Below, in pieces: positions 14,035 through 64,000 of a DNA stretch of 64,000 nt (positions are counted from its first letter, which is position 1; every line of letters starts with the position of its first letter). The position numbers were made by a program, and so were the translations under genes. The notes under the pieces were generated by a model. That model ran no database searches and was not told the DNA's origin. It worked only from the letters and a program-made list of their open reading frames with translations. This stretch comes from a virus. The DNA lies in the IMG/VR virus record IMGVR_UViG_3300045988_177552, positions 98,231 through 162,230 of that record; one strand, 5' to 3'.

Positions 14035-14406
14035 ATGTTTAATAGTAGAAAATTAGAAGTATTTGTATTACATCCTACGACAGGACATAAATCATATGAT
14101 GTCTATAGGGTAAAATATCAAAATCAAATACGAGATTACCTAGAAAAGAACAATTGTAGGAACCTGGTTAAGATTACACAGGCTGAACATGATGGTCGTA
14201 GAATTGATGTGCACCAGGAATCTACTGTACGGTGGAGACCTGGAGATATCTTAATCAAAGTTCCTGAAGGTGTAGACATATATTGGGGACTTAGGGACTT
14301 CTTGAATGACCTCAGTGAAGAAAGGGTAGCCAGAAATGAGCCCAGAGGTTTTAGGTGGTGTAGTCCTATTGAAGTTAGTACTGAAGAAGAGGCAGAAATC
14401 TTATGA
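14035..14406 (+). CDS. hypothetical protein
   Basis: first gene of a plus-strand operon 14035-17690. Confidence 0.4.
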   Translation: MFNSRKLEVFVLHPTTGHKSYDVYRVKYQNQIRDYLEKNNCRNLVKITQAEHDGRRIDVHQESTVRWRPGDILIKVPEGVDIYWGLRDFLNDLSEERVARNEPRGFRWCSPIEVSTEEEAEIL

Positions 14407-38944: not shown

Positions 38945-39561
38945 TATTTCTCAAACTTAATCACCTCATTAACCTTTTCGCCAACAGTATCTTTATTGAT
39001 TCCTGGCATCCTAACTAGTTCTTCAAAACATGAGCATTCCAAGACGGTCTTCTTAAAATCCGTATCACCATCCTTACAAGCTTCGTAGAGTTCATCCCAG
39101 ACTGGATTAGTTTCCCAGTCATTAGTCCAAATCTCAATCTTAATTCTCTCACTGACAGGCTCCAAGTATCCTTTCATAAGATCCATGACTTGATACTCAG
39201 GGAGGCCTCCATTATTACATCCCAACAGAGGGAAAGCAACTTCCTTGAGACCTTGTGCCTTGTATTGAGAACAGAACTTATTAAGGCCAGATTCGATATC
39301 CCTAATATCTGACTTACTTCTCCAGTCTCTTTTAGTAGGGAAATTCAGTACGTCCCATCGATTGGTATTCTGATATAACCAGAGAGTTCCAATCCGCAAT
39401 GCTCCAGTACTACAATACTCTTTATACTGCTGGAACATCTTGGGGAACATCATTTTATGTACTAATGCTAATCCTGCTCCCATAACGCCAACAGTATTAA
39501 CGGTGTTTACAATTGTCTTACACCTAGTGTTAAAAATACTTCCAGTTTTGTACTCGATCAT
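38944..39561 (-). CDS. macro-domain (ADP-ribose binding/processing) protein
   Basis: GSIFNTRCKTIVNTVNTVGVMGAGLAL resembles macro-domain N-terminal and Gly-rich blocks. Confidence 0.5.
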   Translation of the reverse strand: MIEYKTGSIFNTRCKTIVNTVNTVGVMGAGLALVHKMMFPKMFQQYKEYCSTGALRIGTLWLYQNTNRWDVLNFPTKRDWRSKSDIRDIESGLNKFCSQYKAQGLKEVAFPLLGCNNGGLPEYQVMDLMKGYLEPVSERIKIEIWTNDWETNPVWDELYEACKDGDTDFKKTVLECSCFEELVRMPGINKDTVGEKVNEVIKFEK

Positions 39562-41406: not shown

Positions 41407-42459
41407 TTAATTCGTCTCCGCTGATCCTGAAGCCTTCATAATAAGATCCTCAGTAATCAACAGGTAGGAGATACTATTATAATATTCACTACTATCGTTC
41501 GGAGTTATAATAAAGCTGAGAGGGAAATGTTTCTCAATCTCCTTGCAGAATGTCTCGTCCCCTAGGAGTTTCTTGAAAAGATATGCTCCACCTCCAAGCA
41601 TGACAAGATTATTGGCAGCATCAAGGAACTCTCCATATCTCTCTTCAATTAAGTTCAAGACATTAACGAAATATCTCTTAGTAAACTGATTAACTACCTC
41701 TGAGAGATTAACTTCACGTCCCCTACGCCTGAGAATTCCAGTATCTACAACGGTCTGAGCTTCCTTAATTGAAATTCTATACTCGAAATTCTTGTAGATA
41801 TAATCTGACATATCTCTAGCGATTACGATAATTCCTGTGTCGGGAAGTCCTATCGTAGCACCAACAGAAGACTTCCTATTAATCACAGAACAAAGATCAA
41901 CGGTGAGATAACCAATGTCTGCGATTACATAGGAGTCGAAATCATTAACCTTCGTTGCATTAGCTGCATTTTCCCTAATATTTGCTCCAAACTTCTGAAG
42001 TGTATACCTACTTGACATAGCCTGAGGAAGACATACGAAGAACTGAGAATCTGGAGAAATCATCAAGGCGTCGTATAAGGTCTGAAGGAGTAGATCTGCT
42101 TTCTTAACAAATGCAAAACTAAGTCCAATAGCTACCTTATCAAACTTTATATGTTCCAACTTCTTCAACATATAACTAACCCAAGCAGGATAAACAGCCA
42201 ACATATCCTCGAATGTCTCTAGGGGAAGGAGATAACTACGGGCCGTCCTAAGAGCAGAAGGACCGAGGAGGAACCAGTCTGCACCAAGTCTGAAAGTCTC
42301 ATCATTATCTGCTGTTGTTGGAGGTTCTGGAAGTTTGGCAGCAGCTGAAATAATCTTATCGCTAACCATCTTTCCATTCTCATCAATGTAAGTATACTTT
42401 AGTGCTGAATAACCAAGATCCAGCGCTAGAATTTTAGCTCTTTTTTCCATAACGTTCAA
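41407..42459 (-). CDS. actin-like ATPase (ParM/Alp family)
   Basis: phosphate-1 ILALDLGYSALK, phosphate-2 IADIGYLTVDL, adenosine LMLGGGAYLF. Confidence 0.6.
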   Translation of the reverse strand: MNVMEKRAKILALDLGYSALKYTYIDENGKMVSDKIISAAAKLPEPPTTADNDETFRLGADWFLLGPSALRTARSYLLPLETFEDMLAVYPAWVSYMLKKLEHIKFDKVAIGLSFAFVKKADLLLQTLYDALMISPDSQFFVCLPQAMSSRYTLQKFGANIRENAANATKVNDFDSYVIADIGYLTVDLCSVINRKSSVGATIGLPDTGIIVIARDMSDYIYKNFEYRISIKEAQTVVDTGILRRRGREVNLSEVVNQFTKRYFVNVLNLIEERYGEFLDAANNLVMLGGGAYLFKKLLGDETFCKEIEKHFPLSFIITPNDSSEYYNSISYLLITEDLIMKASGSAETN

Positions 42460-47016: not shown

Positions 47017-48642
47017 TTATTCCTCTTTAGTAGCAACCTTTGGCTCACAGGTAATCGTACAGTCAATAAGCAAGATCATTGAGGCTGCACTGATACTATT
47101 CTCCAAGCTTACACGAAGGGCCTTTGATGAATCCAAGACACCTGACTCAATAAGATCCTCGAACTTCTTTGTCTTAGCATTGAATCCATAACCAGGCCTA
47201 TTCTCCTTGGATGCTATATCAAGTACAACATCCCCTGAGACTCCAGAATTCTCAGCAATAGTCTTCATGATGATGGGGAGTGATTTCTGAACAATCTTTA
47301 TACCCTCTTTCTCATCCTCCGTACAACCTTCCCAAAGCGTCTTATCAAGATCCATAGACTTTGAAGCTTGGTAGAAGATATAACCACCACCAGGAGCACA
47401 TCCCTCTTCAATAGCGGCCCTAGCAGCAAGGATAGCATCTTCAATCGTAGCTTTCCTATTCGCTGTCTCTGCCTCTGATGCACCACCAGCCTTAATTACA
47501 GCTATACCACCAGTCAAGTTGGCAACTCTCTTCTCAAACTTCGTCTTATCATAATCTGAAGTCTGAGGGTCAACAAGTCGCTTCTTGAGAATTTCAGCCC
47601 TCTCATTGATTTCGCTCGGATTTCCTGCACCCTCATAGATGATACAAGAATCCCTTCCAACAACGACCTTCCTAGCCTGACCAAGATCTGACAGGGAAGC
47701 TTGGATAACTGAAACTCCATTTTCCTGACAAATATGAGTACCCCCAACTACAATAGAAATATCCTCCATTGTATTCTTCCTGTTGTCTCCATAATCGATA
47801 CCCTTCACTACACAGCACCGAATAGCACCACGTAGGGTATTGAAAACGAACATCGCATTGACAGTCTCATCCATGTCATCACAGATAATAAGGAGAGGAC
47901 GACCTTGTGAATTTCCCTGATAATCCTCCAAGAGATTCATAAGTTGAGCAACAGATGAAATTCTCTCTGAGGCAACCAGGATATAAGGATTCTCAAGAAC
48001 ACACTTTCCTTCCTCCGGTGATGTGACATATTGAGGACTAGCCCATCCACGATCCAGTTTCATACCGGTCGTGATGTCAATGGTTGTATCAAGTCCTGCA
48101 CTTCCTTCAGCGGTGACAAGAGAATTAATGCCTACCTCCTTGAAAGCCTGCATAACCAAGTTTCCAACCTCAGGATCATTGTTCGCTGAAATAGTAGCAA
48201 CCTTCCTGATTTTCTCAAGATCAGAACCAACCTCGATACTGTTAGCCTTGATATACTCGGTCATCCACTTTCCAGCTTTCAACATACCTGACTTGAGTTC
48301 ATTGACATTAGCTCCAACACTGACCGCCTTCTGTCCTTTCTTACAGAACTCCCTGATTAAGAGAGATGTAGAGGAAGTTGCATCACCAGCCTTATCCTCA
48401 GTCATTGATGCTGCCTTCTTAACAAGCTCTGCACCAATATTTTCCTCTGGATCACTGAATTTGACGGACTTTGCAATAGTGGCTCCATCTCTTGTAATCT
48501 GGACACCAAAACCATCATCCTCAATGGCAATACCCCTACCTGCAGGACCCATAGAAAGCTTAATCGCATCTACAATTTTGTCTACACCAGCAATAACCTT
48601 AGCCTGTGTAGAATCACCAAGCTTAATTACCTTGTTTTCCAT
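47017..48642 (-). CDS. groL: chaperonin GroEL (Cpn60)
   Basis: 541 aa; GPAGRG-type N-terminal block, ATP-binding segments, typical length; directly downstream of groES. Confidence 0.85.
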   Translation of the reverse strand: MENKVIKLGDSTQAKVIAGVDKIVDAIKLSMGPAGRGIAIEDDGFGVQITRDGATIAKSVKFSDPEENIGAELVKKAASMTEDKAGDATSSTSLLIREFCKKGQKAVSVGANVNELKSGMLKAGKWMTEYIKANSIEVGSDLEKIRKVATISANNDPEVGNLVMQAFKEVGINSLVTAEGSAGLDTTIDITTGMKLDRGWASPQYVTSPEEGKCVLENPYILVASERISSVAQLMNLLEDYQGNSQGRPLLIICDDMDETVNAMFVFNTLRGAIRCCVVKGIDYGDNRKNTMEDISIVVGGTHICQENGVSVIQASLSDLGQARKVVVGRDSCIIYEGAGNPSEINERAEILKKRLVDPQTSDYDKTKFEKRVANLTGGIAVIKAGGASEAETANRKATIEDAILAARAAIEEGCAPGGGYIFYQASKSMDLDKTLWEGCTEDEKEGIKIVQKSLPIIMKTIAENSGVSGDVVLDIASKENRPGYGFNAKTKKFEDLIESGVLDSSKALRVSLENSISAASMILLIDCTITCEPKVATKEE

Positions 48643-48656
48643 TTTCTTTTCTTAAA

Positions 48657-48917
48657 TTAAAGTACTACTAAGATATCAGATACTGAGATAACACGGAAAG
48701 AATCTCCTTCGAATGTAAACTGATGACCTGGATTGACATAAGTAGCCAAGAGATCTCCCTCTACTACCCCCTCAACCTTCGGACCTACAGAAATAACCCT
48801 ATAAGTCTCATACTCACCAGCACCAGCAGGAACTTCAAATCCGCCTAACCTCTCAGTAAGTTTTGAATCTTTTTGATCTTCTTTCTTTACCAAGATCTTT
48901 GAATCAATTGCTTTCAT
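48657..48917 (-). CDS. groS: co-chaperonin GroES (Cpn10)
   Basis: MKAIDSKILVKK...GEYETYRVISVGPKVEG; ORF-track start 48974 over-extends into the promoter motif. Confidence 0.75.
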   Translation of the reverse strand: MKAIDSKILVKKEDQKDSKLTERLGGFEVPAGAGEYETYRVISVGPKVEGVVEGDLLATYVNPGHQFTFEGDSFRVISVSDILVVL

Positions 48918-48956
48918 AATTTCTTTTTTATCAAAAATTAATAATTGAGTTAATAT

Positions 48957-48997
48957 CATTAATAGGGATTTCACGGCTTCTGGAGTGCGTTTTTGTC
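48957..48997 (-). promoter_or_regulatory. two-part promoter-like motif upstream of groES-groEL
   Basis: cattaatagggatttcacggcttctggagtgcgtttttgtc. Confidence 0.45.
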
Positions 48998-53762: not shown

Positions 53763-54794
53763 ATGATTGAAAAAGAAACAAAGTATTCGTATCGTGACTT
53801 ATTCATTAAACCGAGAACCACTTCGTATATTCGTCATCGGTCAGAGTGCATTCTCCCCGATACCCTTCCCTTGATTACTGCCCCTATGGATAGTATTGTA
53901 GGGAAAGAAAATTTCGAAGAGTGGAAGAAGAACGGTATTACTCCTATTCTTCCTAGGACATTCAGCTTAGAGGAGAGACTTGAGTTTGGATCTCATAATT
54001 GGATCGCCCTGGGGTTGGATGAATTCGAGGGAGCAACTTTACCGAAAGGCCAGCATGTCTTGATTGATATAGCCAATGGACATATGGAGGACTTATACGA
54101 CGCCGTCAGGAAAGCAAAGTATGAGGATCCTTCCCTTGTTGTAATGGTTGGAAACATAGCTAACCCTGAAACCCTCATTGTAGCGGAAGAGGCTGGAGTT
54201 GATTATATTAGGGTTGGTATAGGAGCAGGACAGGGTTGTATAACTGCCTCTAACGTCTCTGTATCTTATCCAATGGCCTCCTTAGTGAATGACTGCTATG
54301 AGGTAAAAGTGAGGCACGGACTTAGGGTTGGAATTGTAGCAGATGGTGGTGTCAGGAATTATTCAGATGCTATAAAAGCCCTTGCCCTTGGAGCAGATTA
54401 TGTCATGATTGGTTCAGTATTCGCCAAGATGTTAGAGTCTTCGGGTGAGATTCTTAGTTTCCCTGAACTCCCTAGGTTCATTAGGGAAGAAGATATGGAG
54501 ACTTACGGAATTGAGCCGGATTTTACTAAGAATGGAATTGGTCTAAAGAAGATATTCTATGGTATGGCTTCAAGACAAGGACAGATTGCTATGCATGGAC
54601 AAAAGACTAGAACATCTGAGGGTATAATGAAGTTCTTGCCTGTAGAATATACAATGAGGACTTGGGTCGAGAATTTCAGAGATTACCTGAGATCCGCCAT
54701 GTCTTATACTGGTCATAAGAGGCTTTCAGATTTCATTGGCAGTCCTACATTGATCGTTGCTTCTCCACTAACGGTTGAAGGAATAAATAAGTAG
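53763..54794 (+). CDS. GMP reductase / IMP dehydrogenase-family enzyme
   Basis: 343 aa TIM-barrel; ANGHMED, GIGAGQGCITAS (catalytic Cys loop), IVADGG blocks. Confidence 0.7.
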   Translation: MIEKETKYSYRDLFIKPRTTSYIRHRSECILPDTLPLITAPMDSIVGKENFEEWKKNGITPILPRTFSLEERLEFGSHNWIALGLDEFEGATLPKGQHVLIDIANGHMEDLYDAVRKAKYEDPSLVVMVGNIANPETLIVAEEAGVDYIRVGIGAGQGCITASNVSVSYPMASLVNDCYEVKVRHGLRVGIVADGGVRNYSDAIKALALGADYVMIGSVFAKMLESSGEILSFPELPRFIREEDMETYGIEPDFTKNGIGLKKIFYGMASRQGQIAMHGQKTRTSEGIMKFLPVEYTMRTWVENFRDYLRSAMSYTGHKRLSDFIGSPTLIVASPLTVEGINK

Positions 54795-54828: not shown

Positions 54829-55371
54829 CTAACCTTCTTTTTTAGTCTCCTTATCGAGTAATCTTAAGAGTTCTGGGAGTCTATACTGTCCCTTCATTCT
54901 TTTAACCAATCGTAAGGCCTCCTCATTACTCAAGCCACCTCCACCTTGTATCCATAGTGGCGTACTTCCTTTTGGTCCCCTGGTATAACCTAAGGCCTCT
55001 CCATAGATAAGGCCTGTTCCACCAAAGTCCTTCTTAGCCACTCCGATAAGACAAGGATTCCACGGCTTGATACGCCTTAAGAGCATATCACCGAGACCCT
55101 CCCTAAGCTCTCCAGTTTCCTTATCGTGAATCCTTAAGAACCCGTCTAAGATTATGTATGTTATCCTCTCTTCCTTCCCCTGAATTTTCTCAAGGAGGTC
55201 AAGAATAGGAGGAAGTTCTCTAAGGTAAAACTTTCCTGGAATATAAGGACCGAATTGATCAGTCCAAGAGGTTATAATTTCCTCAGGCACCAAGTCAATC
55301 CAGTCCTTAAACAATATCCCTACCGTCTTAGCTTTATCGCTCAGGTAGTAAGTGTCGATAGCGAGAATCAC
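54829..55371 (-). CDS. nfi: endonuclease V (deoxyinosine 3' endonuclease)
   Basis: collinear with E. coli Nfi: YIPGKFYLRELPPILDLL, ILDGFLRIH, LIGVAKK, MKGQYRLPELLRLLD. Confidence 0.7.
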   Translation of the reverse strand: MILAIDTYYLSDKAKTVGILFKDWIDLVPEEIITSWTDQFGPYIPGKFYLRELPPILDLLEKIQGKEERITYIILDGFLRIHDKETGELREGLGDMLLRRIKPWNPCLIGVAKKDFGGTGLIYGEALGYTRGPKGSTPLWIQGGGGLSNEEALRLVKRMKGQYRLPELLRLLDKETKKEG

Positions 55372-55744: not shown

Positions 55745-56326
55745 TTAGTATTTCCAGATCTTATGCAACCTACAGCCAAGGAGATTTCCCAAGACTTCAG
55801 CTATCCAGATTAATTCAACTTCACCATTGCCGGTCATACTCATAAAATAGAATGAATCTGCTATGCTATGTGTAAATCCAGCCATGATGAAGAGTGGAAT
55901 GCCTAAGAGTATTGGTAAGACCCTCTTGGATTCTCTATAGTGTTCAACAGCTGTAGTCATGATTATACCACATCCTATTGCTAAGAGAAAACAGTCGATT
56001 ATCCCATGCTGTATTCTTCCTTCTGTTATAGTCCTGGCTCCTTCCACTACTTCTGGCATGGCAATTATACACACTAGGAATGAGATCAGTGTTCCCAAGA
56101 TATTACCTCCCAGGATTATACCGAGTCTCTTCCAGGATTCCAATGACTTATGATCAAAGAATCCCGCTGTTCCTGTATATAGCCCTAATCCATAGTAGCA
56201 AACACTAATCAGGCCAAAGGAGAATAATACGGCTCCTATGATACCTCCGACTTTAATGTTTACTATGCAGCCTAAGGAAATGAATATTCCAGCTCCAATC
56301 GATTCCCTTAAAGTCTTACTTATCAT
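55745..56326 (-). CDS. integral membrane protein (possible small-molecule transporter)
   Basis: 193 aa, 5-6 hydrophobic helices. Confidence 0.4.
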   Translation of the reverse strand: MISKTLRESIGAGIFISLGCIVNIKVGGIIGAVLFSFGLISVCYYGLGLYTGTAGFFDHKSLESWKRLGIILGGNILGTLISFLVCIIAMPEVVEGARTITEGRIQHGIIDCFLLAIGCGIIMTTAVEHYRESKRVLPILLGIPLFIMAGFTHSIADSFYFMSMTGNGEVELIWIAEVLGNLLGCRLHKIWKY

Positions 56327-57080
56327 CTAAGAGGTCGATTATTTTAAGATCTCCAATAACTTCCTGTCCCTGGGTAAACTCATAAAAATCAGTCTCCCCT
56401 TCGTCTATTAGGAAGTTATATGTCTTTCCAGTCTCATCCGTCAAGAAAATTCTCCATGATTCTTTGTAGGAGTGTTTCAATTTCAGTCCACAGAGCCTAA
56501 ACACCAGGACTTCATCTTCCCAATCCTTGACATCTTCCTCATCAGTATCTTTCAGAGGTCGAATCGCTACAACAATATTCTTTGCATACTTCAAGGTCTT
56601 TACAAGGTCCTTATTATCATTCAATGCTTTCAAGGCACCGAAAGGTAGGGTTCCTCGTTTATCCCAGAGCTTCAATACCCTGTCATAGTAGATTCCCTCC
56701 TCCAAAAGTCTGTTGTGGAGTGAGAATGTCGTAAACCTATTCATTGTATTCTGAATTCCTTGTCCCATGACATCGAAACTGAAACCTTCCGGAATGATTC
56801 TTTCGATTCGGATTTTTTCGCCATCTTCACCTTGTCTGTCAGGAAGCTTATACTCTACTTGGTATGTCATAGTAACGGGATCATAGTCTGACATCTTTGT
56901 AATGATAGCCTTCTCAACTGTTGTATCCCACTTACCATCGGACGGGTCTCTCCTATAATCAATATAAACGAGCTCAGCCCCGACATACTTCAAGAGTTCA
57001 CCACCTTCCAGAACCCACTTAACGTCTCCGGTGTTAAATCCATAACGTTCTTTAAATTCCTGAAACTTAGTTTTACTCAT
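56316..57080 (-). CDS. hypothetical protein
   Basis: 254 aa. Confidence 0.35.
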   Translation of the reverse strand: MSKTKFQEFKERYGFNTGDVKWVLEGGELLKYVGAELVYIDYRRDPSDGKWDTTVEKAIITKMSDYDPVTMTYQVEYKLPDRQGEDGEKIRIERIIPEGFSFDVMGQGIQNTMNRFTTFSLHNRLLEEGIYYDRVLKLWDKRGTLPFGALKALNDNKDLVKTLKYAKNIVVAIRPLKDTDEEDVKDWEDEVLVFRLCGLKLKHSYKESWRIFLTDETGKTYNFLIDEGETDFYEFTQGQEVIGDLKIIDLLDDK

Positions 57081-57133
57081 CGTTTTGTTTGTTTATTTTT
57101 ATTGTTATACATATATCAGGAGTTGAGGCCTTC

Positions 57134-57514
57134 CTAAGCGCAAATTATTCCTTTTGCTACTAGGATTTTCTCAACCTCTTCCCAATTAATGAAAGGTCTA
57201 GGAGATAAGGCAGGGTCTTGTGTTAAGGGAGCCCCTAGTGCAGTATCATCTATATAAAGATTCGCAAATACTTTAGGGCTTTTTGTCCATCTAGTCTGTG
57301 ATCTATTGAAATTAACCCCATACAGAGGAATTTCATGATCCTTAAACCACTTAACGGCCTCTTTCTCTGTTTCATCACTTCTCATTGTATGAAGGATTAG
57401 TTTATGTCCCTCATCAACAAGTTTCTTCAAGACGGGAACAGCTCCTATGTCCTTCCCTACTTTTGGATAATCATGCGTTACACATGTTCCATCAAAATCA
57501 ATTGCTATAAACAT
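57134..57514 (-). CDS. HAD-superfamily phosphatase
   Basis: IDFDGT motif I, small 126-aa HAD core. Confidence 0.5.
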   Translation of the reverse strand: MFIAIDFDGTCVTHDYPKVGKDIGAVPVLKKLVDEGHKLILHTMRSDETEKEAVKWFKDHEIPLYGVNFNRSQTRWTKSPKVFANLYIDDTALGAPLTQDPALSPRPFINWEEVEKILVAKGIICA

Positions 57515-57557
57515 AATAAAATAGTTTTTAATACAGAGTCCACTTCATTGTTGACTC

Positions 57558-57615
57558 CTACATACATAAGGAAATAAGGGCGGGAAATTCAGAAGCCGGC
57601 AAAATCTTAATAATG
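57558..57615. promoter_or_regulatory. divergent promoter region: minus-type motif for 57134..57514 and plus-oriented motif for the leader/57838 gene
   Basis: catacataaggaaataaggg (minus gene) adjacent to ttcagaagccggcaaaatcttaataatg (plus orientation). Confidence 0.4.
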
Positions 57616-57716
57616 TAAGATGAATGTATTTAAAAAAGTATTATTAATGATGAAAAAGAGCGTTGATGTATTGAAAATTAATATGTCAAATGAGCGTTCA
57701 TCAGAGAGATACTACG

Positions 57717-57772
57717 ATCTATGTGGTGAGGAATTTGCTGGCTCACTTTGGGGTTCGAATCCCCGACATAGA
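57717..57772 (+). ncRNA. tRNA-like element lacking anticodon arm
   Basis: 7-bp acceptor stem TCTATGT/ACATAGA, D-arm-like TGAG..CTCA with GG loop, canonical T-arm TGGGG-TTCGAAT-CCCCG, discriminator G; no CCA. Confidence 0.3.
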
Positions 57773-57837
57773 GCTATTGCCTTAGAATCCACAGTCAACT
57801 CTAAGGTGATGTTTCAACTTAAAACTAGTTTTAAAAT

Positions 57838-58896
57838 ATGAACAAGATCGTAGTTTACACATCAAATCTTGATGTAAATCCCAAAAACATGGGAGACGTC
57901 ATCGAGTTCGCAAAAAGAACACCGAAGTTCTACATTGCGTCTGTAGGGGCTAGTGAAACACTTGCCAATGTGAAACCAGGAGACCAGATTATTACTAAGA
58001 AGGGCAATTCCCTCTATGTAATTCGTGCGTTCGACAAAGACCTGGAGAATCTCTCTGACGAAGACCGTAACTATCTCGCCGAAATCAAGGGTGCGTACGG
58101 TGCTCGTAATATGAATATCACCAGTGTAGGTCAGATTATCAAGTTTGAGACCTGGTGCAAATCAGCAAAACCATTCATCAATTTAAAATCAGAAACAAAA
58201 ATGAAGAATTCAATCAGTGGCCTCAGTGCCCGTCTTAAGGAGCTCTATACTCCTACTGAAGCAAAGGATGTACGTGTAACCGCTCAGGGTGACATCTGTG
58301 TAGAAACAAAGAACGGCTTCGTAGCTATCGACGCCAATGGTAAGCTCAACTCATACGTAGAGGAGCTCACTGTGAAGCTGCCTTGCTACATCATGTCAAA
58401 GCCCGCTAATGCTCTCCAGCCTGGTGATATTCTCGCCCTGGATAAGAGCTACGCAAAGGTTACTGAAGTGAAGGGTGACAAGATCTCTGCTATCGGCTAT
58501 ACCGGTGCAGTCAAGACCATCCGCACTATCAACGACGTCCTGTTCAACCAGACCATGGTACGCGTTGTCGTATCTCTCGCTGGCAATCTCGGCGGTGGTG
58601 CACTCAACCCTCTTATGTTGATGCTCCTCAGCGACGACGAAGAGAAGTCTAGCAAGAAGGACCTCCTGCCTCTGCTCATGATGAGCCAGAACGGTGGTGC
58701 ACTTCAGGCTAATCCCCTGATGATGCTCGCCCTCACAAAGGACGGTGAAGGATCTTCTATGAAGGACCTCCTGATGCTCAGCGCTATGTCTAGTAATGGC
58801 ATGAACCTTTTTGCTGGTCTCGGTGCTCAGCCTGCCGCTCCTGCAACTAACGCAACTGGTGCAGCACAGGCAGCTGATCCTAAGGCCGCTGAATAA
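57838..58896 (+). CDS. abundant hypothetical protein with C-terminal Met/Leu-rich triple repeat
   Basis: 352 aa, high GC and codon bias; repeats NPLMLMLLSDDEEKSSKKDLL / LMMSQ.. / LMMLALTKDGEGSSMKDLL; long 5' leader. Confidence 0.45.
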   Translation: MNKIVVYTSNLDVNPKNMGDVIEFAKRTPKFYIASVGASETLANVKPGDQIITKKGNSLYVIRAFDKDLENLSDEDRNYLAEIKGAYGARNMNITSVGQIIKFETWCKSAKPFINLKSETKMKNSISGLSARLKELYTPTEAKDVRVTAQGDICVETKNGFVAIDANGKLNSYVEELTVKLPCYIMSKPANALQPGDILALDKSYAKVTEVKGDKISAIGYTGAVKTIRTINDVLFNQTMVRVVVSLAGNLGGGALNPLMLMLLSDDEEKSSKKDLLPLLMMSQNGGALQANPLMMLALTKDGEGSSMKDLLMLSAMSSNGMNLFAGLGAQPAAPATNATGAAQAADPKAAE

Positions 58897-58967
58897 ATAA
58901 TAAATGGAGCTACTTTACTGTGGGAGTAGTTCCATTCTTTTTGTTAATATCAAACTTTTTAGCATAG

Positions 58968-59795
58968 ATGGAAAATTTTTCATGTGGGATATTAAGTTTA
59001 TGCACAATGTATAAATGTGATTTTGATGGACATTCCATTGATCACTTTTCAGATTGTGAGTCAGCCGCTTGTTTTGGCGGTTATACTGGGCTTCTCAGGA
59101 AAGAAAAATACAGGCCACAGGAGAAACTTGATGTAACTCTGGATATCAAAATAAGAACGTTCGATCACTTCCTTGAGGATCATAAGGGAAAGAATAACTT
59201 TTGCCTCTTAGGGAAGAAAGATATTGAGGAGCATTTCGCTTATCTCAGTGAAACCTATTGTATCGATTGTTCTGTTCAGGTTTTCGGAGACGATTGGAAG
59301 GAGCTCGAAGATGATAAGTTGCCTGAGGAGAATTATTACCTCAAGCTTCATCTCAACGCTACTCCAGGACAGCAGGTATTTGCCCTGACTTGGTGTAGAC
59401 ATCTTTACGAGTTTCCGTTCAATATGTTCCTCCTTGATGCACTTCGTCTTAAGAAGGAGTTTGGGGAATTCAGGAACGAACACCTAGCCAATATCATCCA
59501 AGTAGTCGGATCTTCTTTTGCTAAGGTCTCATACTATAGAGGTGATCAGTGTCTGTGTGAGCCTCAGAAAGAGTTGATAACAGAGGATAGACTCTGTAAA
59601 CACTTGACTTCTCACAAGACGATAACAAGTGCTTGGAATTCACTGTCGGAAGAAAAGCGACAGGCAATTAAGCCGCTCCTTTCTAATGAGGATACTTTGA
59701 AGAAGTCAACCTACTGGCTCGATCCTCAGACTTTTGACGAGAGGAAGAATATCTATCTCCAGAACTATATGTCAATTTATAATTTTATAGGATGA
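58968..59795 (+). CDS. hypothetical protein, paralog A1 of duplicated module
   Basis: 275 aa; paralogous to 60375..61169 (LTWCRHLYEFPFNMFLLDALRLKKEF vs LTWIRYIYEYPYNLILMDSRRLKKG). Confidence 0.4.
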   Translation: MENFSCGILSLCTMYKCDFDGHSIDHFSDCESAACFGGYTGLLRKEKYRPQEKLDVTLDIKIRTFDHFLEDHKGKNNFCLLGKKDIEEHFAYLSETYCIDCSVQVFGDDWKELEDDKLPEENYYLKLHLNATPGQQVFALTWCRHLYEFPFNMFLLDALRLKKEFGEFRNEHLANIIQVVGSSFAKVSYYRGDQCLCEPQKELITEDRLCKHLTSHKTITSAWNSLSEEKRQAIKPLLSNEDTLKKSTYWLDPQTFDERKNIYLQNYMSIYNFIG

Positions 59796-60430
59796 AAGAA
59801 AAAGCGATAAAAGTTTATGTAGTGGGTCCGTCTACAGGTTATTCTGGATTTATTGAGAATAAGGTACTTGTAGATAAGATGGAGGAGGCTCAAGTTGTAT
59901 TGTTTACTGGCGGAGAAGATATCAATCCCCGTCTCTATAACAAGGCTCCACATCACTCAGTCTATTATACGGACCGTCGTGATAAGATGGAAGTAGCTGC
60001 CTTTGAGAAAATAAGGCCGGGACAGATTGCCGTAGGTATATGTAGGGGCGCTCAATTATTCTGTGCTTTGTATGGTGGTATCTTAGTTCAGGACTGTGAC
60101 CGTCATTGGGGTCATGGCAAGCATACAATTACGAATGGAACTCAGGAATTTACTGTTACCTCCATTCACCACCAGATGCAATACCCTTATGACCTGCCTA
60201 ATGAGGATTATGAGGTCTTATTCTGGTCAGAGGGGAGAAGCTCCTACTATGAAGGCGATGGTGTTGACCCAAAGAAGATAAAGGAATTCGGAGAGCCTGA
60301 GGTTACTGTTTTCCATCGTGAAGGTATGCCGTTGTGTTTCGGAATTCAAGGACACCCCGAGATGATGGATAGAAATGATCCGTTCGTTAAGTGGGTTAAT
60401 GAGAAAATCCATGAATACGTTGAAGGATGA
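59792..60430 (+). CDS. class-I glutamine amidotransferase-like / C26 gamma-glutamyl hydrolase-like protein (copy 1)
   Basis: nucleophile elbow GICRGAQLF, IQGHPE His-Glu motif. Confidence 0.6.
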   Translation: MKEKAIKVYVVGPSTGYSGFIENKVLVDKMEEAQVVLFTGGEDINPRLYNKAPHHSVYYTDRRDKMEVAAFEKIRPGQIAVGICRGAQLFCALYGGILVQDCDRHWGHGKHTITNGTQEFTVTSIHHQMQYPYDLPNEDYEVLFWSEGRSSYYEGDGVDPKKIKEFGEPEVTVFHREGMPLCFGIQGHPEMMDRNDPFVKWVNEKIHEYVEG

Positions 60431-61169
60431 AATTACTGGGAGAACCTCTTATTATACCTGTTATAGGAACGGTAACGATAAGATTAAGAGGGGACAAGGA
60501 TGTTTCAGCTCTATCTTCTATAAGGGCAAATTAGATGATATCTCTAGTAGGACGTATCATGTCTATGCCTTTATCGGATTTGGTTGTACAGTAAGTAATA
60601 ACTGTTTCATGACCAAAGAGGAAGTGGAGGAACACCTGGGATACCTCAATGATATTGTTCCCCTAGAGCGTTATTCAGTTAAAGAGACAAAGTTTCCTTA
60701 TCCTGGTACAAAAGGAATTCCAGCTTTTGATATATCCATAAAGCTTAAGAATCAGAGGAGAATAAAACATAAGTATGCCTTGACTTGGATAAGGTATATC
60801 TATGAATATCCTTACAATCTTATTCTCATGGATTCAAGGAGGCTGAAAAAGGGATTGCTTCAGGATGAAACGATGATTAATCTCTTTACTCTCGTTGTTA
60901 GATGTTTTAAGTGTAGTAAATATATGTATGGCGCAGGTCATGCAATGCCATTACCGGCTTCATCTGGTTTCATTTCAGATGTAGATGTTATCAAGAAATT
61001 GGATGGCACACTGAAACTTAATTCAATCTTCCCAACGACTTCAGTGAAGGTACCAACATTGCCGGGAGGCTCAGAAACCAAGTTCTTAGAATATTGGGCG
61101 GCAAATGAGTACTTTGATCAGAGAGCCAAGATTTATATGGAAGCATATAAAAAACTAAAAGGACAATGA
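60375..61169 (+). CDS. hypothetical protein, paralog A2
   Basis: 264 aa, paralog of 58968..59795. Confidence 0.4.
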   Translation: MIRSLSGLMRKSMNTLKDEITGRTSYYTCYRNGNDKIKRGQGCFSSIFYKGKLDDISSRTYHVYAFIGFGCTVSNNCFMTKEEVEEHLGYLNDIVPLERYSVKETKFPYPGTKGIPAFDISIKLKNQRRIKHKYALTWIRYIYEYPYNLILMDSRRLKKGLLQDETMINLFTLVVRCFKCSKYMYGAGHAMPLPASSGFISDVDVIKKLDGTLKLNSIFPTTSVKVPTLPGGSETKFLEYWAANEYFDQRAKIYMEAYKKLKGQ

Positions 61170-61792
61170 AAAATTTAAAAGTTTACGTAGTGGGTGGATC
61201 ACTTAGGTATTCCTCGTTTATCAAGGAATGTGAAGTGGTTGATGACATAAAATCCGCCCAGGTAGTGATATTTACAGGAGGTGAAGATGTTTCGCCTTCA
61301 ATGTATGGTTGTAGGAAACATAAGAAAACATCTTGCAACTTAGAACGTGATAAGAAAGAGGAGAAGATCTTTAAGAGCATTCGTCAGGATCAGTTGGTGA
61401 TTGGCGTATGTAGGGGATCTCAGCTCCTGTGTGTGTTAAATGGTGGAATCCTCGTGCAAGACGTGCCAGGTCATGCAACAGGAAGAACGCACGAGATAAC
61501 AAATGGTGAGATGGCATATCAGATTACGTCCACACATCACCAAATGCAGTATCCGTATGTATTGAATGAGAAAGAGTATTCTGTTCTCTACTGGTCATCC
61601 CTCAATGCTGGAAATTACGAGGGAGATAAGGTAGACGGAAATATCATAATGGAAAAGGGAGAGCCAGAGATTGTGCTTTATAAGAAAAAAGGAAAGCCTA
61701 CCTGTCTGGCTATTCAAGGGCATCCCGAAATGATGGTTGATGCCCCGGTTGTTGATATGTTAAATAAATTAATTGAAGAATATGTACATTGA
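61166..61792 (+). CDS. class-I glutamine amidotransferase-like / C26 protein (copy 2)
   Basis: GVCRGSQLL, IQGHPEMM; paralog of 59792..60430. Confidence 0.6.
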   Translation: MKNLKVYVVGGSLRYSSFIKECEVVDDIKSAQVVIFTGGEDVSPSMYGCRKHKKTSCNLERDKKEEKIFKSIRQDQLVIGVCRGSQLLCVLNGGILVQDVPGHATGRTHEITNGEMAYQITSTHHQMQYPYVLNEKEYSVLYWSSLNAGNYEGDKVDGNIIMEKGEPEIVLYKKKGKPTCLAIQGHPEMMVDAPVVDMLNKLIEEYVH

Positions 61793-62132
61793 AGATTTTA
61801 CAGTAGGTTCAGATCCCGAGTTGTTCATTATTAACGAGAAGACGGGAAAAGTAGTATCATCAATAGGTCTTATCCCTGGAGTAAAGGGAGAACCATGGGT
61901 TGGTAGTGATATGCCAAGTGGTTTCGGACTGGAGACTGACAATATCTTGGCGGAGTTCAACATTCCACCAGTGACTGATTGCGAGAATTTCGTGAATAAT
62001 ATCCAGTATATGAAGGATTATATCACGAAGTTTGTGAAGAGCCAAAATCCTGATCTGGGTATCAGGTGTATAGCATCTCAGATGGTTGATGCAAGCCAAT
62101 TACAAAGTGAAGAAGCACAGTTATTCGGTTAA
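61773..62132 (+). CDS. carboxylate-amine ligase (GCS2/amidoligase-like) N-terminal segment, putative exon 1
   Basis: FTVGSDPELFIIN resembles the GCS2 N-terminal hxhGxExEh motif; ORF stops exactly at start of structured insert. Confidence 0.45.
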   Translation: MKNMYIEDFTVGSDPELFIINEKTGKVVSSIGLIPGVKGEPWVGSDMPSGFGLETDNILAEFNIPPVTDCENFVNNIQYMKDYITKFVKSQNPDLGIRCIASQMVDASQLQSEEAQLFG

Positions 62133-62664
62133 AAAAAATAGCCGCCTACTAGGATTAATAGTAGGAAAATCGGACAAAAACGGTGAATAAATACCAAGAG
62201 TATATTGTTTAAATACCGTGATAACTCTGAGGATTGCGAAAGGCTTCAGAGTATTGTAGAGCGTAGGAAGTGAATAAATATAATCTTCCCAAGAGTGCCC
62301 GACATGAAAATGAAAATGTACGCCGAACTATAGCGAGAATTGGTGTAGCTATAGAAGTCTAGATAAAAAGCTAGGCGATAACATAATTGTGTGATCCTGA
62401 CTTCAACGCATACACACTTTCTGAGAACCCTAAACCAGAGGGAACAGCAACAAATCTGAGAAGTGCGGGTCGGTGGAAAGGCCCGAGAGCATAGTAATAT
62501 GTTCTTGAGAATAGATCAAAAACGGTAAACGAGTAAAATATAATGTCTTGGATACCGTGCTAATTATAAATTTAAAATGTTTATAACAGTGTAACGCATA
62601 GAGATTGAACCTGAGAAATCAGAATAAAATATCTCCACGAGTGATCTACCCCATGAGTTAATTG
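62130..62664 (+). other. candidate self-splicing (group I-like) intron, ORF-less
   Basis: 535-nt ORF-free insert starting with TAA; perfect hairpins cctacta/tagtagg, ctatagc/gctatag, ctctgagg/cttcagag; repeats ataccgtg, aaaacggt; R-like TTCAGAG element; joining 62129|62665 is in frame. Confidence 0.3.
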
Positions 62665-63123
62665 TGGGTGAAAATATATGCTGAACTTACGGAAAATATT
62701 TGGAACCGTAAGAACTGTGGGATAAAAAGCCTGCAGGTTAACAAATTGTTTCATATACATCTTGGATATCCGCATAACAATCAGGACGCATCCGTTGAAC
62801 TGGTAAAATACTTGGACTGCTATCTTGGAGTTCCTTCTATTGTTGAGGATCCTGATACAAAGCGTCGTTCCCTCTATGGAAAGGCTGGTGCATTCAGACT
62901 TCAAGATTGGGGAGTTGAGTATAGGTCCCTCTCATCTTATATGATGAGGAATGAGGAGTCCTTGAGGAAAGTTTGGAAGGGAGTACGACGTGCTATCCAT
63001 GCTTTCAATGAGGGATATGATCGTCCCGCTGAGAGTGATGTAGTAACGTGCATTAACAAGAGCAACGTCAACCTTGCAAAAGAACTCATCAAGGAGTATA
63101 ATCTTGAGTTTGATATTCACTAA
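62662..63123 (+). CDS. carboxylate-amine ligase C-terminal segment, putative exon 2
   Basis: no in-frame ATG near start (TTG called); FHIHLGYP resembles the GCS2 H-x-H-x-G catalytic motif. Confidence 0.4.
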   Translation: MWVKIYAELTENIWNRKNCGIKSLQVNKLFHIHLGYPHNNQDASVELVKYLDCYLGVPSIVEDPDTKRRSLYGKAGAFRLQDWGVEYRSLSSYMMRNEESLRKVWKGVRRAIHAFNEGYDRPAESDVVTCINKSNVNLAKELIKEYNLEFDIH

Positions 63124-63135
63124 CGGTTTAAGCTT

Positions 63136-64000
63136 ATGTGTGGAATCGCAGGTATATTGAATTTAAAGCCGAAGAAATTAGATTACGCAACCTTCACTTC
63201 AATGGGAATCTTGAATGATGAACGTGGTGGAGACGCTTGTGGTATCTTCATTGACGGCGACGTAGACTATGGAACCGCCGTGGATGATCGGCATTTCAGA
63301 GATTATTTCACAAAGAGTACTGTCCTGAAAGAGGCCAGGGATAAGAAAGTTAATATCGCCCTAGTTCATTGCAGGAAAGCCTCTGTTGGTGGTGTAGCTC
63401 CAGAGAAGGCTCAGCCAGTTGTTCTAAAAGACTCTAAGGGTAATGTGAGGTTCGTTATGATTCATAATGGAACTGTTCACAACTACGAGGCCTTAGCGAA
63501 GAAGTATATTCCTGATGTTAAAATCGAGGGTCTTACTGATTCACAGGTCTTGGCTAGGATATTCTATTACAAGGGATATGAGTGTCTTAGTGAGTATAAT
63601 GGTGGAGCAGCTTTCGTAACTGTAGATTATAGACAGCCCACTCCATTGGTATTGATGTGGAGAGGAGCTTCTAAGAAGACTGATGTTTCGAAAGAGGTTA
63701 CTGAAGAAAGGCCGTTGTGGTTTGTTTATAATAAAAAGAAGGCAGAGCTCGTATTCTGCTCTATTCCAGAAATCCTAGAAGCTTGTCGGCCTGATGAAAC
63801 ACTCTATAGGCCAGTTGAAAATAAGCTGGTTACATTCAGGTGGGATGACGAGAAGCCAGGAGAAGCTGAAGTTTATGTTCATGCTTCCTATTCTCGTGAT
63901 AAGTGTACCCAGACTAAGGAGTATACAGGAACGACTACCTATTATGGAGGTGGTTATTCTGGTTCCTACAACTGGGGAAGGTCTAGTGGTGTATCTTCTG
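63136..64000 (+). CDS. class-II (Ntn-type) glutamine amidotransferase, partial at window end
   Basis: N-terminal MCGIAG nucleophile Cys2; frame open to end of window. Confidence 0.6.
   Translation, partial: MCGIAGILNLKPKKLDYATFTSMGILNDERGGDACGIFIDGDVDYGTAVDDRHFRDYFTKSTVLKEARDKKVNIALVHCRKASVGGVAPEKAQPVVLKDSKGNVRFVMIHNGTVHNYEALAKKYIPDVKIEGLTDSQVLARIFYYKGYECLSEYNGGAAFVTVDYRQPTPLVLMWRGASKKTDVSKEVTEERPLWFVYNKKKAELVFCSIPEILEACRPDETLYRPVENKLVTFRWDDEKPGEAEVYVHASYSRDKCTQTKEYTGTTTYYGGGYSGSYNWGRSSGVSS

What the first reader, a model, noticed from the sequence alone, without database searches (positions are those of the whole stretch)
58968..64000. Candidate phage peptide or metabolite amidation system: duplicated [unknown + class-I GATase] modules, split amidoligase, Ntn-type GATase
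Six consecutive plus-strand genes: two tandem paralogous pairs of a 265-275-aa unknown protein and a 210-aa class-I amidotransferase/C26-like hydrolase (GICRGAQLF/GVCRGSQLL, IQGHPE), then a GCS2/carboxylate-amine-ligase-like gene (FTVGSDPELFIIN, FHIHLGYP), then a class-II Ntn amidotransferase starting MCGIAG. Amidoligase plus GAT-II plus gamma-glutamyl-hydrolase-like combinations have been predicted from comparative genomics to build or trim amino-acid or peptide conjugates; I recall that proposal only from memory and did not check it. The partner proteins and the tandem duplication are not something I can assign to a known family. Just upstream sits a highly expressed protein (57838..58896) with a triple Met/Leu-rich C-terminal repeat that could be a substrate.
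Basis: partly seen in the sequence, partly recalled or inferred. Interest (0 to 1): 0.85.

Follow-up and report, generated by a model that had tools for sequence, protein, structure and literature searches.

The report
Intron-split phage amidoligase gene cassette
A large phage carries a widespread but still uncharacterised operon of amide-bond-forming and glutamine-using enzymes, here with a doubled pair of a new unknown protein plus a glutamine hydrolase, and with its ligase gene cut into three pieces by two group-I-type introns. What the operon modifies is still unknown.

Summary
Window 58968-64000 encodes, on the + strand and with overlapping start/stop codons: unknown protein xA, C26/class-I GATase, unknown protein xB, a second C26, a phiEco32-type COOH-NH2 ligase, and an Ntn (class-II) GATase cut off by the window end. 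A close relative shows an Amidoligase_2 gene follows.

The "split amidoligase" is one gene interrupted by two ORF-less introns (62130-62389 and 62471-62748). They have group-I hallmarks: U before the 5' splice site, terminal G, and a covarying P3-P9 core with a P7 pseudoknot. A relative lacks intron 1 exactly, and other phages carry a LAGLIDADG endonuclease version at the intron 2 site.

The cassette order [ATP-grasp or a 352-aa protein]-x-C26-ligase-GAT-II-Amidoligase_2 is conserved in 80+ viral loci. It is the phiEco32/LUZ24-type module, predicted in 2009 to modify the cell wall or make peptides, and I found no experimental test of it.

What is new:
- Family x has no Pfam, PHROG or PDB relative and a confident but unmatched fold.
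- x always sits next to C26, is translationally coupled to it, and is fused to it once.
- The duplication is old.

The chemistry (ATP-dependent amide ligation plus glutamine or gamma-glutamyl hydrolysis) is inferred. The substrate is unknown.

The parts
57838..58896 (+). U: a 352-aa conserved protein of unknown function with Met/Leu-rich C-terminal repeats. Related copies often end in an acidic tail. It sits at the cassette position where other phages have an ATP-grasp gene. Whether it belongs to the system is uncertain.
   Evidence: No Pfam, PHROG, NCBIfam or PDB hit. More than 300 homologues at 52-89% identity, many on contigs of about 165-180 kb. It directly precedes x in 16 of 83 loci and in L084 and L086. 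Repeats are shown.
58903..58936 (+). Terminator-like hairpin (14-bp stem plus T-run) between U and the cassette.
   Evidence: This is a pattern match only.
58968..59795 (+). xA: a 275-aa member of the new family x, the divergent copy.
   Evidence: 27% identical to xB. Included in alignments A3-A5. No Pfam or PHROG hit. Its stop codon overlaps the C26a start codon (ATGA).
59792..60430 (+). C26a: a 212-aa class-I GATase / Peptidase_C26 with Cys84, His188 and Glu190.
   Evidence: Pfam C26 6.3e-14 and GATase 3.6e-5. phrog_7218 1.4e-27. Triad motifs GICRG and GHPE.
60411..61169 (+). xB: a 252-aa member of family x, the canonical copy. An earlier ATG at 60375 is possible.
   Evidence: Homologues P0001 and P0002 are 252 and 251 aa. 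AF2 model pLDDT 91.6. Invariant residues C31, R128 and E132.
61166..61792 (+). C26b: a 208-aa class-I GATase / Peptidase_C26 with Cys82, His186 and Glu188.
   Evidence: Pfam C26 3.5e-15. phrog_7218 5e-32. 49% identical to C26a.
61782..62129 (+). COOH-NH2 ligase exon 1 (residues 1-116, ending ...EEAQLFG).
62130..62389 (+). Intron 1: 260 nt, no ORF, group-I type. It starts with an in-frame TAA.
   Evidence: Exactly absent from relative L002. Preceded by U and ends in G. The 3' two-thirds match non-coding DNA of Staphylococcus and crAss-like phages, and four of those matches end exactly at 62389.
62390..62470 (+). Ligase exon 2 (27 codons, CDPDFNAYTLSENPKPEGTATNLRSAG).
62471..62748 (+). Intron 2: 278 nt, no ORF, group-I type, inserted just before the HxH motif.
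   Evidence: The same site is occupied in L002 and 12 IMG/VR loci. Some copies are 250-280 nt and others are 1.1-1.2 kb with a LAGLIDADG ORF.
62749..63123 (+). Ligase exon 3 (FHIHLGYP... to the stop codon).
   Evidence: Pfam PF14395 7e-11. The spliced protein hits phrog_3815 at 2.9e-65.
63136..64000 (+). GAT-II: class-II (Ntn) glutamine amidotransferase starting MCGIAG. It is cut by the window end.
   Evidence: GATase_6 1.2e-15. The full-length orthologue in L002 is 457 aa and is followed by a 456-aa Amidoligase_2 gene.

Best explanation
This is the version, in a large phage, of the phiEco32/LUZ24-type 'amidoligase' operon. The phage is probably Bacteroidota-infecting, crAss-related or similar, with a genome of about 170 kb.

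Shown:
- A translationally coupled gene string xA-C26a-xB-C26b-ligase-GAT-II. Amidoligase_2 lies just beyond the window in relatives.
- Intact catalytic motifs: a Cys-His-Glu triad in both C26 proteins, an N-terminal Cys in GAT-II, and the HxH motif in the ligase.
- The ligase mRNA must lose two group-I-type introns to encode the 267-aa enzyme.

Inferred mechanism:
- The two glutamine-synthetase/GCS2-fold ligases use ATP to activate carboxylates and form amide bonds on one common, still unknown substrate.
- GAT-II and the C26 proteins either deliver ammonia from glutamine, giving net amidation as in MurT/GatD or AsnB, or hydrolyse gamma-glutamyl amides, giving ligate-then-trim as in PuuA/PuuD or EgtA/EgtC.
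- Protein x is the obligate partner subunit of C26. It would be a specificity, acceptor or scaffold subunit. The two old x-C26 modules would then give two specificities.
- The most likely substrate class is a peptide-like envelope precursor or a small amine/amino-acid metabolite made during early or middle infection. That is the 2009 prediction and remains untested.

My confidence in the identity of the cassette and of the introns is about 0.9. My confidence in the chemistry and substrate class is about 0.4.
For: - Domain hits.
- Catalytic motifs and overlapping start/stop codons.
- Colinearity of the spliced ligase with the intronless cr108_1 enzyme (98% coverage, 49.6% identity, no gaps at the junctions).
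- Conserved order [G or U]-x(1-2)-C-L-N-A in IMG/VR loci. Of 83 loci, x is in 62, C in 67, N in 75 and A in 73.
- x is never found without C26 (62 of 62). The x-to-C junction is -4 to +11 nt in 61 of 65 cases.
- One in-frame C26-x fusion (L039).
- The x family has 477 50%-identity clusters with invariant Cys, Arg and Glu.
- Introns: natural intron-less allele; LAGLIDADG versions at the same site; consensus fold; 92.9% of cells paired against 32-45% in slid controls, and 33 of 50 pairs with compensatory change, including the P7 pseudoknot.
- Literature: the module is called a putative peptidoglycan or cell-wall modification module after Iyer 2009 (PMC11945000, PMC11318856).
- The best, weak NCBIfam match for both C26 proteins is a gamma-glutamyl-amide hydrolase.
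Against: - No experiment on any member was found in the literature held here.
- No solved structure shares detectable sequence similarity with the ligase, Amidoligase_2 or x.
- GS/GCS2-type ligases normally take free amines rather than channelled ammonia, so the amidotransferase reading is not the default for this fold.
- The cassette sits in replication or early regions in cr108_1 and in phage tf. That placement fits a nucleic-acid target as well as an envelope target.
- This lineage lacks the ATP-grasp gene found in most other versions, so the pathway is not identical across phages.
- Rfam's group I model does not detect these introns, and self-splicing was not tested.
Confidence: 0.55

Rival explanations
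1. The cassette is a DNA or nucleotide hypermodification pathway. The ligases would attach an amine, amino acid or ammonia to a carboxyl-bearing base, or build a glutamyl-type side chain. The GATases would supply nitrogen or trim it. Protein x would be the nucleic-acid-facing subunit.
For: - The cassette lies between primase and uracil-DNA glycosylase in cr108_1, and just upstream of MazG and primase/helicase in phage tf.
- Amidoligase and amidotransferase genes of unknown role accompany thymidine-hypermodification genes in viral metagenomes (PMC8989533).
- An ATP-dependent amide ligase, CmoY, acts on 5-carboxymethylcytosine in DNA. Some of its homologues carry a GAT-II domain (PMC12783734).
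- Endonuclease V and a GMP-reductase-like gene lie a few kb upstream.
Against: - No dUMP/dCMP hydroxymethylase, 5-hmdU kinase, aGPT-Pplase, CmoA or C5-methyltransferase was found among about 45 window proteins scanned.
- x gives no Pfam hit, including to the aGPT-Pplase families.
- CmoY is AsnB-like (AMP-forming), a different fold from the ligases here.
- To my knowledge, unverified here, no DNA modification is reported for phiEco32 or LUZ24-type phages that carry the module.
Confidence: 0.15
2. The cassette is a protein or peptide-tag modification system, for example glutamylation, amidation or isopeptide tagging of a phage or host protein. The adjacent protein U, or x itself, would be the substrate.
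For: - U is immediately upstream in every U-lineage locus examined. Many copies end in an acidic tail, like the RimK substrate S6.
- Most other versions carry a RimK-like ATP-grasp at the same position.
- The Iyer 2009 abstract, from my memory, proposes peptide-tagging systems built from such ligases.
Against: - U is absent from 67 of 83 cassette loci and never co-occurs with the ATP-grasp, so it cannot be the general substrate.
- A terminator-like hairpin separates U from the cassette.
- Synteny among related 170-kb phages is expected without any functional link.
- x has conserved internal Cys, Arg and Glu and a globular fold, which suits an enzyme or subunit better than a tag.
Confidence: 0.15
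3. The ligase gene is a decaying, truly split or disrupted gene, and the cassette is non-functional in this phage.
For: - Intron 1 begins with an in-frame stop codon.
- No Rfam intron hit.
Against: - All three exons are intact, in frame and 92% identical in protein to the relative L002.
- The insertions have conserved, covarying RNA structure.
- One insertion is exactly absent in a relative.
- The insertions sit at conserved catalytic motifs, as homing introns do.
Confidence: 0.03

Closest known systems
phiEco32/LUZ24-type phage amidoligase module: COOH-NH2 ligase type 2 (PF14395), Amidoligase_2, GAT-II, ATP-grasp, with or without GGCT. It was predicted by Iyer et al. [quoted passage not shown]
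   Same: It has the same ligase family (phrog_3815, 2.9e-65), the same GAT-II and Amidoligase_2 partners, and the same L-N-A core order. 317 phage records carry the ligase.
   Different: This lineage has no ATP-grasp or GGCT within 10 kb. Instead it has x-C26 pairs, here doubled, and U at the ATP-grasp position. tf_17 and tf_18 of phage tf occupy the x position but are not detectably homologous; they share only an N-terminal 'CF' motif. The ligase gene carries two introns.
MurT/GatD and AsnB/LtsA-type peptidoglycan amidation
   Same: An ATP-dependent ligase is paired with a class-I or class-II glutamine amidotransferase, and together they turn a peptide carboxylate into an amide (PMC3267633, listed).
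   Different: MurT has the Mur-ligase fold and AsnB is a PP-loop enzyme. The ligases here have the GS/GCS2 fold. No homology beyond the GATase domains has been shown.
Gamma-glutamyl ligate-and-trim pathways: PuuA/PuuD, EgtA/EgtC, BtrJ/BtrG, and Cj1417 gamma-glutamyl-CDP-amidate hydrolase
   Same: A GS/GCS2-type or ATP-grasp ligase works with a C26, GAT-II or GGCT enzyme that removes glutamate. The best NCBIfam hit for both C26 proteins is the Cj1417 family.
   Different: The hit is far below the curated cut-off (27 bits against 250). The pathway logic comes from my own knowledge and was not tested here.
Phage group I introns, with or without a LAGLIDADG homing endonuclease (T4 td-like IA2 architecture with P7.1/P7.2)
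   Same: U.G at the 5' splice site in P1, a terminal G, a P3-P8/P7 pseudoknot, P4-P6, insertion at catalytic-motif codons, and endonuclease-bearing and ORF-less forms at one site.
   Different: Rfam RF00028 does not detect them even at E<=10, although it detects another intron in L041 at 88 bits. The resemblance to td is from memory. Splicing was not tested.

Membership tests
Phage phiEco32-like COOH-NH2 ligase type 2 (PF14395 / phrog_3815) | Profile HMM match above the curated threshold | tested here: met
   Exon 3 alone scores 42.3 bits against a cut-off of 25. The spliced protein hits phrog_3815 at E 2.9e-65 over 258 of 268 positions.
Phage phiEco32-like COOH-NH2 ligase type 2 (PF14395 / phrog_3815) | Full-length colinearity with uninterrupted members | tested here: met
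   tblastn gives one piece at 98% coverage and 49.6% identity to cr108_1. 267 of 317 phage records cover at least 80% of the query. There are no gaps at either splice junction.
Phage phiEco32-like COOH-NH2 ligase type 2 (PF14395 / phrog_3815) | ATP-dependent carboxylate-amine ligase activity | not testable with these tools
   No biochemical data. No related solved structure.
Class-I glutamine amidotransferase / Peptidase C26 | Pfam match above threshold | tested here: met
   C26 scores 52.7 and 56.8 bits against a cut-off of 20.5.
Class-I glutamine amidotransferase / Peptidase C26 | Cys-His-Glu catalytic triad (GxCxG nucleophile elbow and HPE) | tested here: met
   C84/H188/E190 and C82/H186/E188.
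Class-I glutamine amidotransferase / Peptidase C26 | A partner synthase subunit that accepts the ammonia (needed for 'amidotransferase' as opposed to 'hydrolase') | tested here: inconclusive
   x is the obligate, translationally coupled neighbour and is fused to C26 once. It has no recognisable synthase features.
Class-II (Ntn) glutamine amidotransferase | N-terminal catalytic Cys directly after Met, and a GATase_6/7 match | tested here: met
   The protein starts MCGIAG. GATase_6 scores 58.1 bits against a cut-off of 27.
Class-II (Ntn) glutamine amidotransferase | A known acceptor or synthase C-terminal domain (AsnB, GlmS, PurF or GltB type) | tested here: not met
   The C-terminal roughly 230 aa of the full-length orthologue have no Pfam, NCBIfam or PDB match.
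phiEco32/LUZ24-type amidoligase module | Co-occurrence of the COOH-NH2 ligase with GAT-II and Amidoligase_2 | tested here: met
   N is present in 75 and A in 73 of 83 ligase-anchored loci. L002, L084 and L086 show N and A directly downstream.
phiEco32/LUZ24-type amidoligase module | Associated RimK-like ATP-grasp (and GGCT in LUZ24-like phages) | tested here: not met
   No ATP-grasp in the window or in any of the 16 U-type loci within +/-10 kb. 57 other loci have one.
Group I intron | 5' exon ends in U paired with G in P1; intron ends in G | tested here: met
   Junctions are GGT|...TTG| for both introns. P1 pairs are CGGGU/GCCCG in the window, CAGGU/GCCUG in L042, CUGGU/GCCAG in L041 and UGGGU/GCCCA in L069, read from the sequences.
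Group I intron | Conserved core with P3-P8 and P4-P6 domains and a P7 pseudoknot, supported by covariation | tested here: met
   RNAalifold recovers P3, P4, P5, P6, P7.1, P8 and P9.x. With P7 added, 92.9% of cells pair against 32-45% in slid controls, 33 of 50 pairs show compensatory change, and 0 of 500 shuffles reach the observed values. Only 6 sequences were used.
Group I intron | Match to Rfam Intron_gpI (RF00028) | tested here: not met
   No hit at E<=10. The same model finds another intron in L041 at 88 bits but not the ligase intron there.
Group I intron | GTP-dependent self-splicing | not testable with these tools
   Needs in vitro transcription and a splicing assay, or RNA-seq.
Group I intron | Mobility: intron-minus alleles and homing-endonuclease-bearing forms | tested here: met
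   L002 lacks intron 1 exactly and has an extra intron in C26b. LAGLIDADG ORFs of 273-295 aa lie in introns at the intron 2 site.

The most novel reading that the evidence does not exclude
x and C26 form a new kind of two-subunit glutamine-dependent enzyme, whose acceptor subunit x has a fold not seen in solved structures. The whole cassette would install an amide-linked group on phage DNA or on a host envelope or immune-signalling molecule as a counter-defence. The doubled x-C26 modules would give two specificities.
Probability: 0.2. Interest if true: 0.8.

Novelty: new variant of a known kind. Interest (0 to 1): 0.55.

Why it matters
The ligase of this module is present in at least 317 sequenced phages, including therapeutic Pseudomonas, E. 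coli and Klebsiella phages, and in many gut viral contigs. Its function has stayed a computational guess since 2009.

This locus adds three concrete handles:
- A previously unnamed, widespread partner family (x) that is strictly coupled to the C26 hydrolase and has invariant Cys, Arg and Glu residues. It is a clear candidate for pull-down, co-structure and mutagenesis.
- Natural variants (xC, xxC, xCxC, a C26-x fusion, and ATP-grasp versus U at one position) that define which parts are core.
- A family of small group-I-type introns that Rfam's model misses. They repeatedly invade the catalytic-motif codons of three or four cassette genes. This affects gene calling, because the ligase and C26 are annotated as fragments in public contigs, and it affects intron surveys.

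If the product turns out to be an envelope, metabolite or DNA modification, it would be a new phage-host interaction mechanism.

Tried and rejected
1. Rfam scans of 57000-64000 and of 62100-62760 at permissive E-values found no intron family. I therefore relied on comparative evidence.
2. megablast of the region against 50,697 phage records found no close relative. It returned only a 73-nt intron fragment in Staphylococcus phages.
3. The word-indexed homology search for x returned only 2 and then 11 proteins. The exhaustive profile search was needed to see the family.
6. BFVD returned only crAss-like hypothetical proteins. The afdb50 library was unavailable.
7. The x HMM and hhalign against phage tf tf_17 and tf_18 were not significant.
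8. PDB sequence searches for U, x, the ligase and Amidoligase_2 found nothing.
9. A link to NAD synthesis, suggested by NAPRTase elsewhere in the window, was considered and dropped. NadE is a different fold, and most cassette-bearing phages were not seen to carry NAD salvage genes.
10. Literature searches for experimental characterisation found annotation-level mentions only. Iyer et al. 2009 is not held in the library.

Full report
**1. What is in the sequence**

The + strand from 57838 to the window end carries these ORFs:
- a 352-aa ORF, called U here (57838-58896)
- a 275-aa ORF, xA (58968-59795)
- a 212-aa ORF, C26a (59792-60430)
- a 252-264-aa ORF, xB (60411 or 60375 to 61169)
- a 208-aa ORF, C26b (61166-61792)
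- two ORF fragments with ligase motifs (61782-62132 and 62662-63123)
- an ORF starting MCGIAG at 63136 that runs off the window

Pfam supports the enzyme calls:
- Both 210-aa proteins are Peptidase_C26. The GATase class-I model matches the first above its cut-off and the second just below.
- The second ligase fragment is COOH-NH2_lig (PF14395, 'phage phiEco32-like COOH.NH2 ligase type 2').
- The last ORF is GATase_6/7.

PHROGs agrees: phrog_7218 for both C26 proteins and phrog_3815 for the ligase. Both C26 proteins keep the Cys-His-Glu triad, and successive genes overlap by 4-20 nt. C26a and C26b are 49% identical. xA and xB are 27% identical.

**2. The 'split amidoligase' is one gene with two introns**

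Between the two fragments lies a short ORF encoding CDPDFNAY..., which is a conserved ligase motif. Joining 61782-62129, 62390-62470 and 62749-63123 gives an 804-nt CDS. Its 267-aa product aligns in one piece to the uninterrupted ligase of crAss-like phage cr108_1, with 98% coverage, 49.6% identity and no gap at either junction.

Evidence that the two insertions are group-I-type introns:
- *Splice-site rule.* Both insertions (62130-62389, 260 nt; 62471-62748, 278 nt) follow a U and end in G.
- *Natural intron-less allele.* A metagenomic relative, L002 (75-89% nt identity), lacks insertion 1 to the nucleotide but keeps insertion 2. It has a third 260-nt insertion in its C26b gene, right after the GICRG nucleophile codons.
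- *Homing endonuclease forms.* The insertion 2 site, after residue 143 and just before the HxH motif, is occupied in 12 further viral contigs. Some carry 250-280-nt forms and others carry forms of about 1.1-1.2 kb that encode LAGLIDADG endonucleases.
- *P1 covariation.* P1 pairing between the last exon bases and the intron covaries among these alleles: CGGGU/GCCCG, CAGGU/GCCUG, CUGGU/GCCAG and UGGGU/GCCCA. I read these from the sequences printed.
- *Core structure.* RNAalifold on six ORF-less copies recovers P3, P4-P5, P6, P7.1, P8 and a terminal hairpin. When I added the P7 pseudoknot, 92.9% of cells paired against 32-45% in slid controls. 33 of 50 pairs show compensatory changes, and no shuffle out of 500 reached the observed values.
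- *Matches elsewhere.* Parts of both introns match un-annotated DNA in Staphylococcus, crAss-like, Lak, Clostridioides and Streptococcus phages. Four of the matches to intron 1 end exactly at 62389.

Rfam's RF00028 model finds nothing here even at E<=10. It does detect a different intron, in the Amidoligase_2 gene of L041, at 88 bits. So this is a group-I-type sub-family that the curated model misses. The likeness to T4 td (P7.1/P7.2, and ...AACAUAAUG at the 3' end) rests on my memory only.

Numerous introns and inteins have been reported for Zeta crAss-like phages (PMC12386605). I did not establish whether this phage belongs to that clade. Introns in this cassette are therefore a new instance of a known kind, not a new phenomenon.

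**3. The cassette is conserved and already known as a prediction**

A scan of IMG/VR with the ligase alignment returned 80 loci. Iterative HMM searches on their ORFs show a fixed order: [ATP-grasp G or protein U] - x (1-2 copies) - C26 - ligase L - GAT-II N - Amidoligase_2 A.

| Component | Loci with it (of 83) |
|---|---|
| N (GAT-II) | 75 |
| A (Amidoligase_2) | 73 |
| C (C26) | 67 |
| x | 62 |
| G (ATP-grasp) | 57 |
| U | 16 |

- cr108_1 has G-x-x-C-L-N-A between primase and uracil-DNA glycosylase.
- Pseudomonas phage tf has two unknown genes, then L, an unknown gene, A and N, and further downstream G, GGCT, MazG and primase.
- The ligase occurs in 317 phage records.
- Papers on LUZ24-like and other phages call this a putative peptidoglycan or cell-wall modification module, citing Iyer et al. 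2009 (PMC11945000, PMC3890496, PMC11318856).
- I found no experimental characterisation, and no solved structure for L, A or x.

**4. What is new here: family x and its link to C26**

x has no Pfam, PHROG, NCBIfam or PDB sequence match. An exhaustive profile search still finds 477 clusters at 50% identity (253 at E<=1e-10), almost all stand-alone proteins of about 250 aa. Across 124 diverse members, C31, R128 and E132 (xB numbering) are invariant. F32, N63, Y131, P134, R238 and Y242 are nearly so.

The link to C26 rests on three observations:
- x never occurs without C26 in the loci (62 of 62).
- The x-to-C26 junction is -4 to +11 nt in 61 of 65 cases, and is an ATGA overlap in 30 of them.
- One contig (L039) encodes an in-frame C26-x fusion.

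This is the pattern of two subunits of one enzyme. Because class-I GATases normally work with an acceptor subunit, I infer that x plays that role or acts as a specificity or scaffold subunit. This is inference, not demonstration.

**5. The duplication**

xCxC also occurs in L002 and in L086/L087. L008 has CxCxC, and L039 has x, then the C26-x fusion, then C. C26a and C26b are each 55-60% identical to single-copy C26 proteins of other phages but only 49% identical to each other. xB resembles the single x of U-type loci (about 30% identity) more than xA does. The second module is therefore old or horizontally acquired, which suggests two specificities and not redundancy.

**6. The upstream protein U**

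U is strongly conserved, with more than 300 homologues at 52-89% identity, many on contigs of about 165-180 kb. It keeps its Met-rich repeats, and many copies end in an acidic tail. It precedes the cassette in every U-lineage locus examined, at the position that the ATP-grasp holds elsewhere.

It is absent from most cassettes, however, and is followed by a strong terminator-like hairpin. It could be a replication-type protein kept nearby by synteny. The acidic tail is reminiscent of SSB-like proteins. The substrate idea is neither supported nor excluded.

**7. Mechanism and rivals**

- *Shown:* gene content, catalytic motifs, coupling and conservation.
- *Inferred:* two GS/GCS2-fold ligases form amide bonds with ATP. 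GAT-II and C26 either supply glutamine-derived ammonia or hydrolyse gamma-glutamyl amides.
- The weak best NCBIfam match of both C26 proteins to gamma-glutamyl-CDP-amidate hydrolase (27 bits) leans slightly towards the hydrolase reading.
- The substrate is unknown.
- A DNA-hypermodification role is a live rival, given the module's placement next to replication genes and the CmoY precedent. The 64-kb window, however, shows none of the usual handle-installing enzymes.
- Protein tagging is a second rival.
- Pseudogenisation is very unlikely.

**8. Verdict**

This is a real, well-delimited variant of a known but experimentally orphan phage system. The 'split' is explained by introns, the substrate suggestion is unsupported, and the partner family x is the most interesting new element. 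Interest is moderate (0.55). Novelty: a new variant of a known kind.

Noticed in passing
window 2450-3508(-), 3729-6404(-), 10381-12507(-), 18817-19533(+), 47020-48642(-), 48660-48959(-): An unusually full proteostasis set for a phage: M42 glutamyl aminopeptidase, ClpB-like double AAA+, an FtsH-like AAA+/M41 protein, ClpP, GroEL and a GroES-sized ORF.
   Followed up: partly
window 19654-20451(-), 20444-21655(-), 21627-22811(-): NAD salvage genes: an isochorismatase/nicotinamidase-like protein, an unknown 404-aa ORF, and nicotinate phosphoribosyltransferase (NAPRTase 4.7e-42). This may be an NAD+ reconstitution counter-defence.
   Followed up: no
window 53763-54791(+), 54829-55371(-), 55748-56326(-), 57137-57514(-): Just upstream of the cassette lie an IMPDH/GMP-reductase-like enzyme, Endonuclease V (deoxyinosine endonuclease), a formate/nitrite-transporter-family membrane protein and a small ORF with a weak, sub-threshold LNS2/HAD-type match. 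This is an odd purine or deaminated-base theme.
   Followed up: no
window 32890-34761(+) and 34768-36150(+): A 624-aa ORF with an intein splicing domain (residues 208-350), followed by an HNH-endonuclease ORF. This is further evidence that the genome is rich in selfish elements.
   Followed up: no
window 57838-58896(+) and 58903-58936: Protein U has three Met/Leu-rich repeats (NPLMLMLL / DLLPLLMM / NPLMMLAL / DLLMLSAM). It is highly conserved in phage contigs of about 170 kb and matches no known family. It is followed by a 14-bp terminator-like hairpin.
   Followed up: partly
L002 about 2538-2797; L086 11419-12285: Relatives carry an intron of the same family in the second C26 gene, inserted in the Ser codon right after the catalytic GICRG. 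Public gene calls therefore show the gene as two fragments.
   Followed up: yes
L041 14174-14458, 5194-5524 and several tRNA sites: In an IMG/VR relative, the Amidoligase_2 gene holds a canonical Rfam group I intron (88 bits). The same 20-kb stretch encodes a tmRNA and seven tRNAs.
   Followed up: no
L039 7819-9348: A single 502-aa ORF fuses a C26 domain (N-terminal) to an x domain (C-terminal). P0031 (615 aa) matches the x profile in two separate stretches.
   Followed up: partly
window 38947-39561(-), 41410-42450(-), 31239-32768(+), 1295-2068(-), 14403-15449(+): A macro domain protein, a ParM/actin-like protein, a flotillin/SPFH protein, one radical-SAM protein (1295-2068, above threshold) and a second ORF with only a weak, sub-threshold radical-SAM match (14403-15449). 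These are auxiliary genes of unclear role.
   Followed up: no
L083 (Pseudomonas phage tf) 5776-7589: tf_17 and tf_18, the two unknown genes preceding the ligase in phage tf, share with family x only an N-terminal '...CF(G/A)' motif around the invariant Cys. They may be very remote homologues, but the match is not significant.
   Followed up: partly
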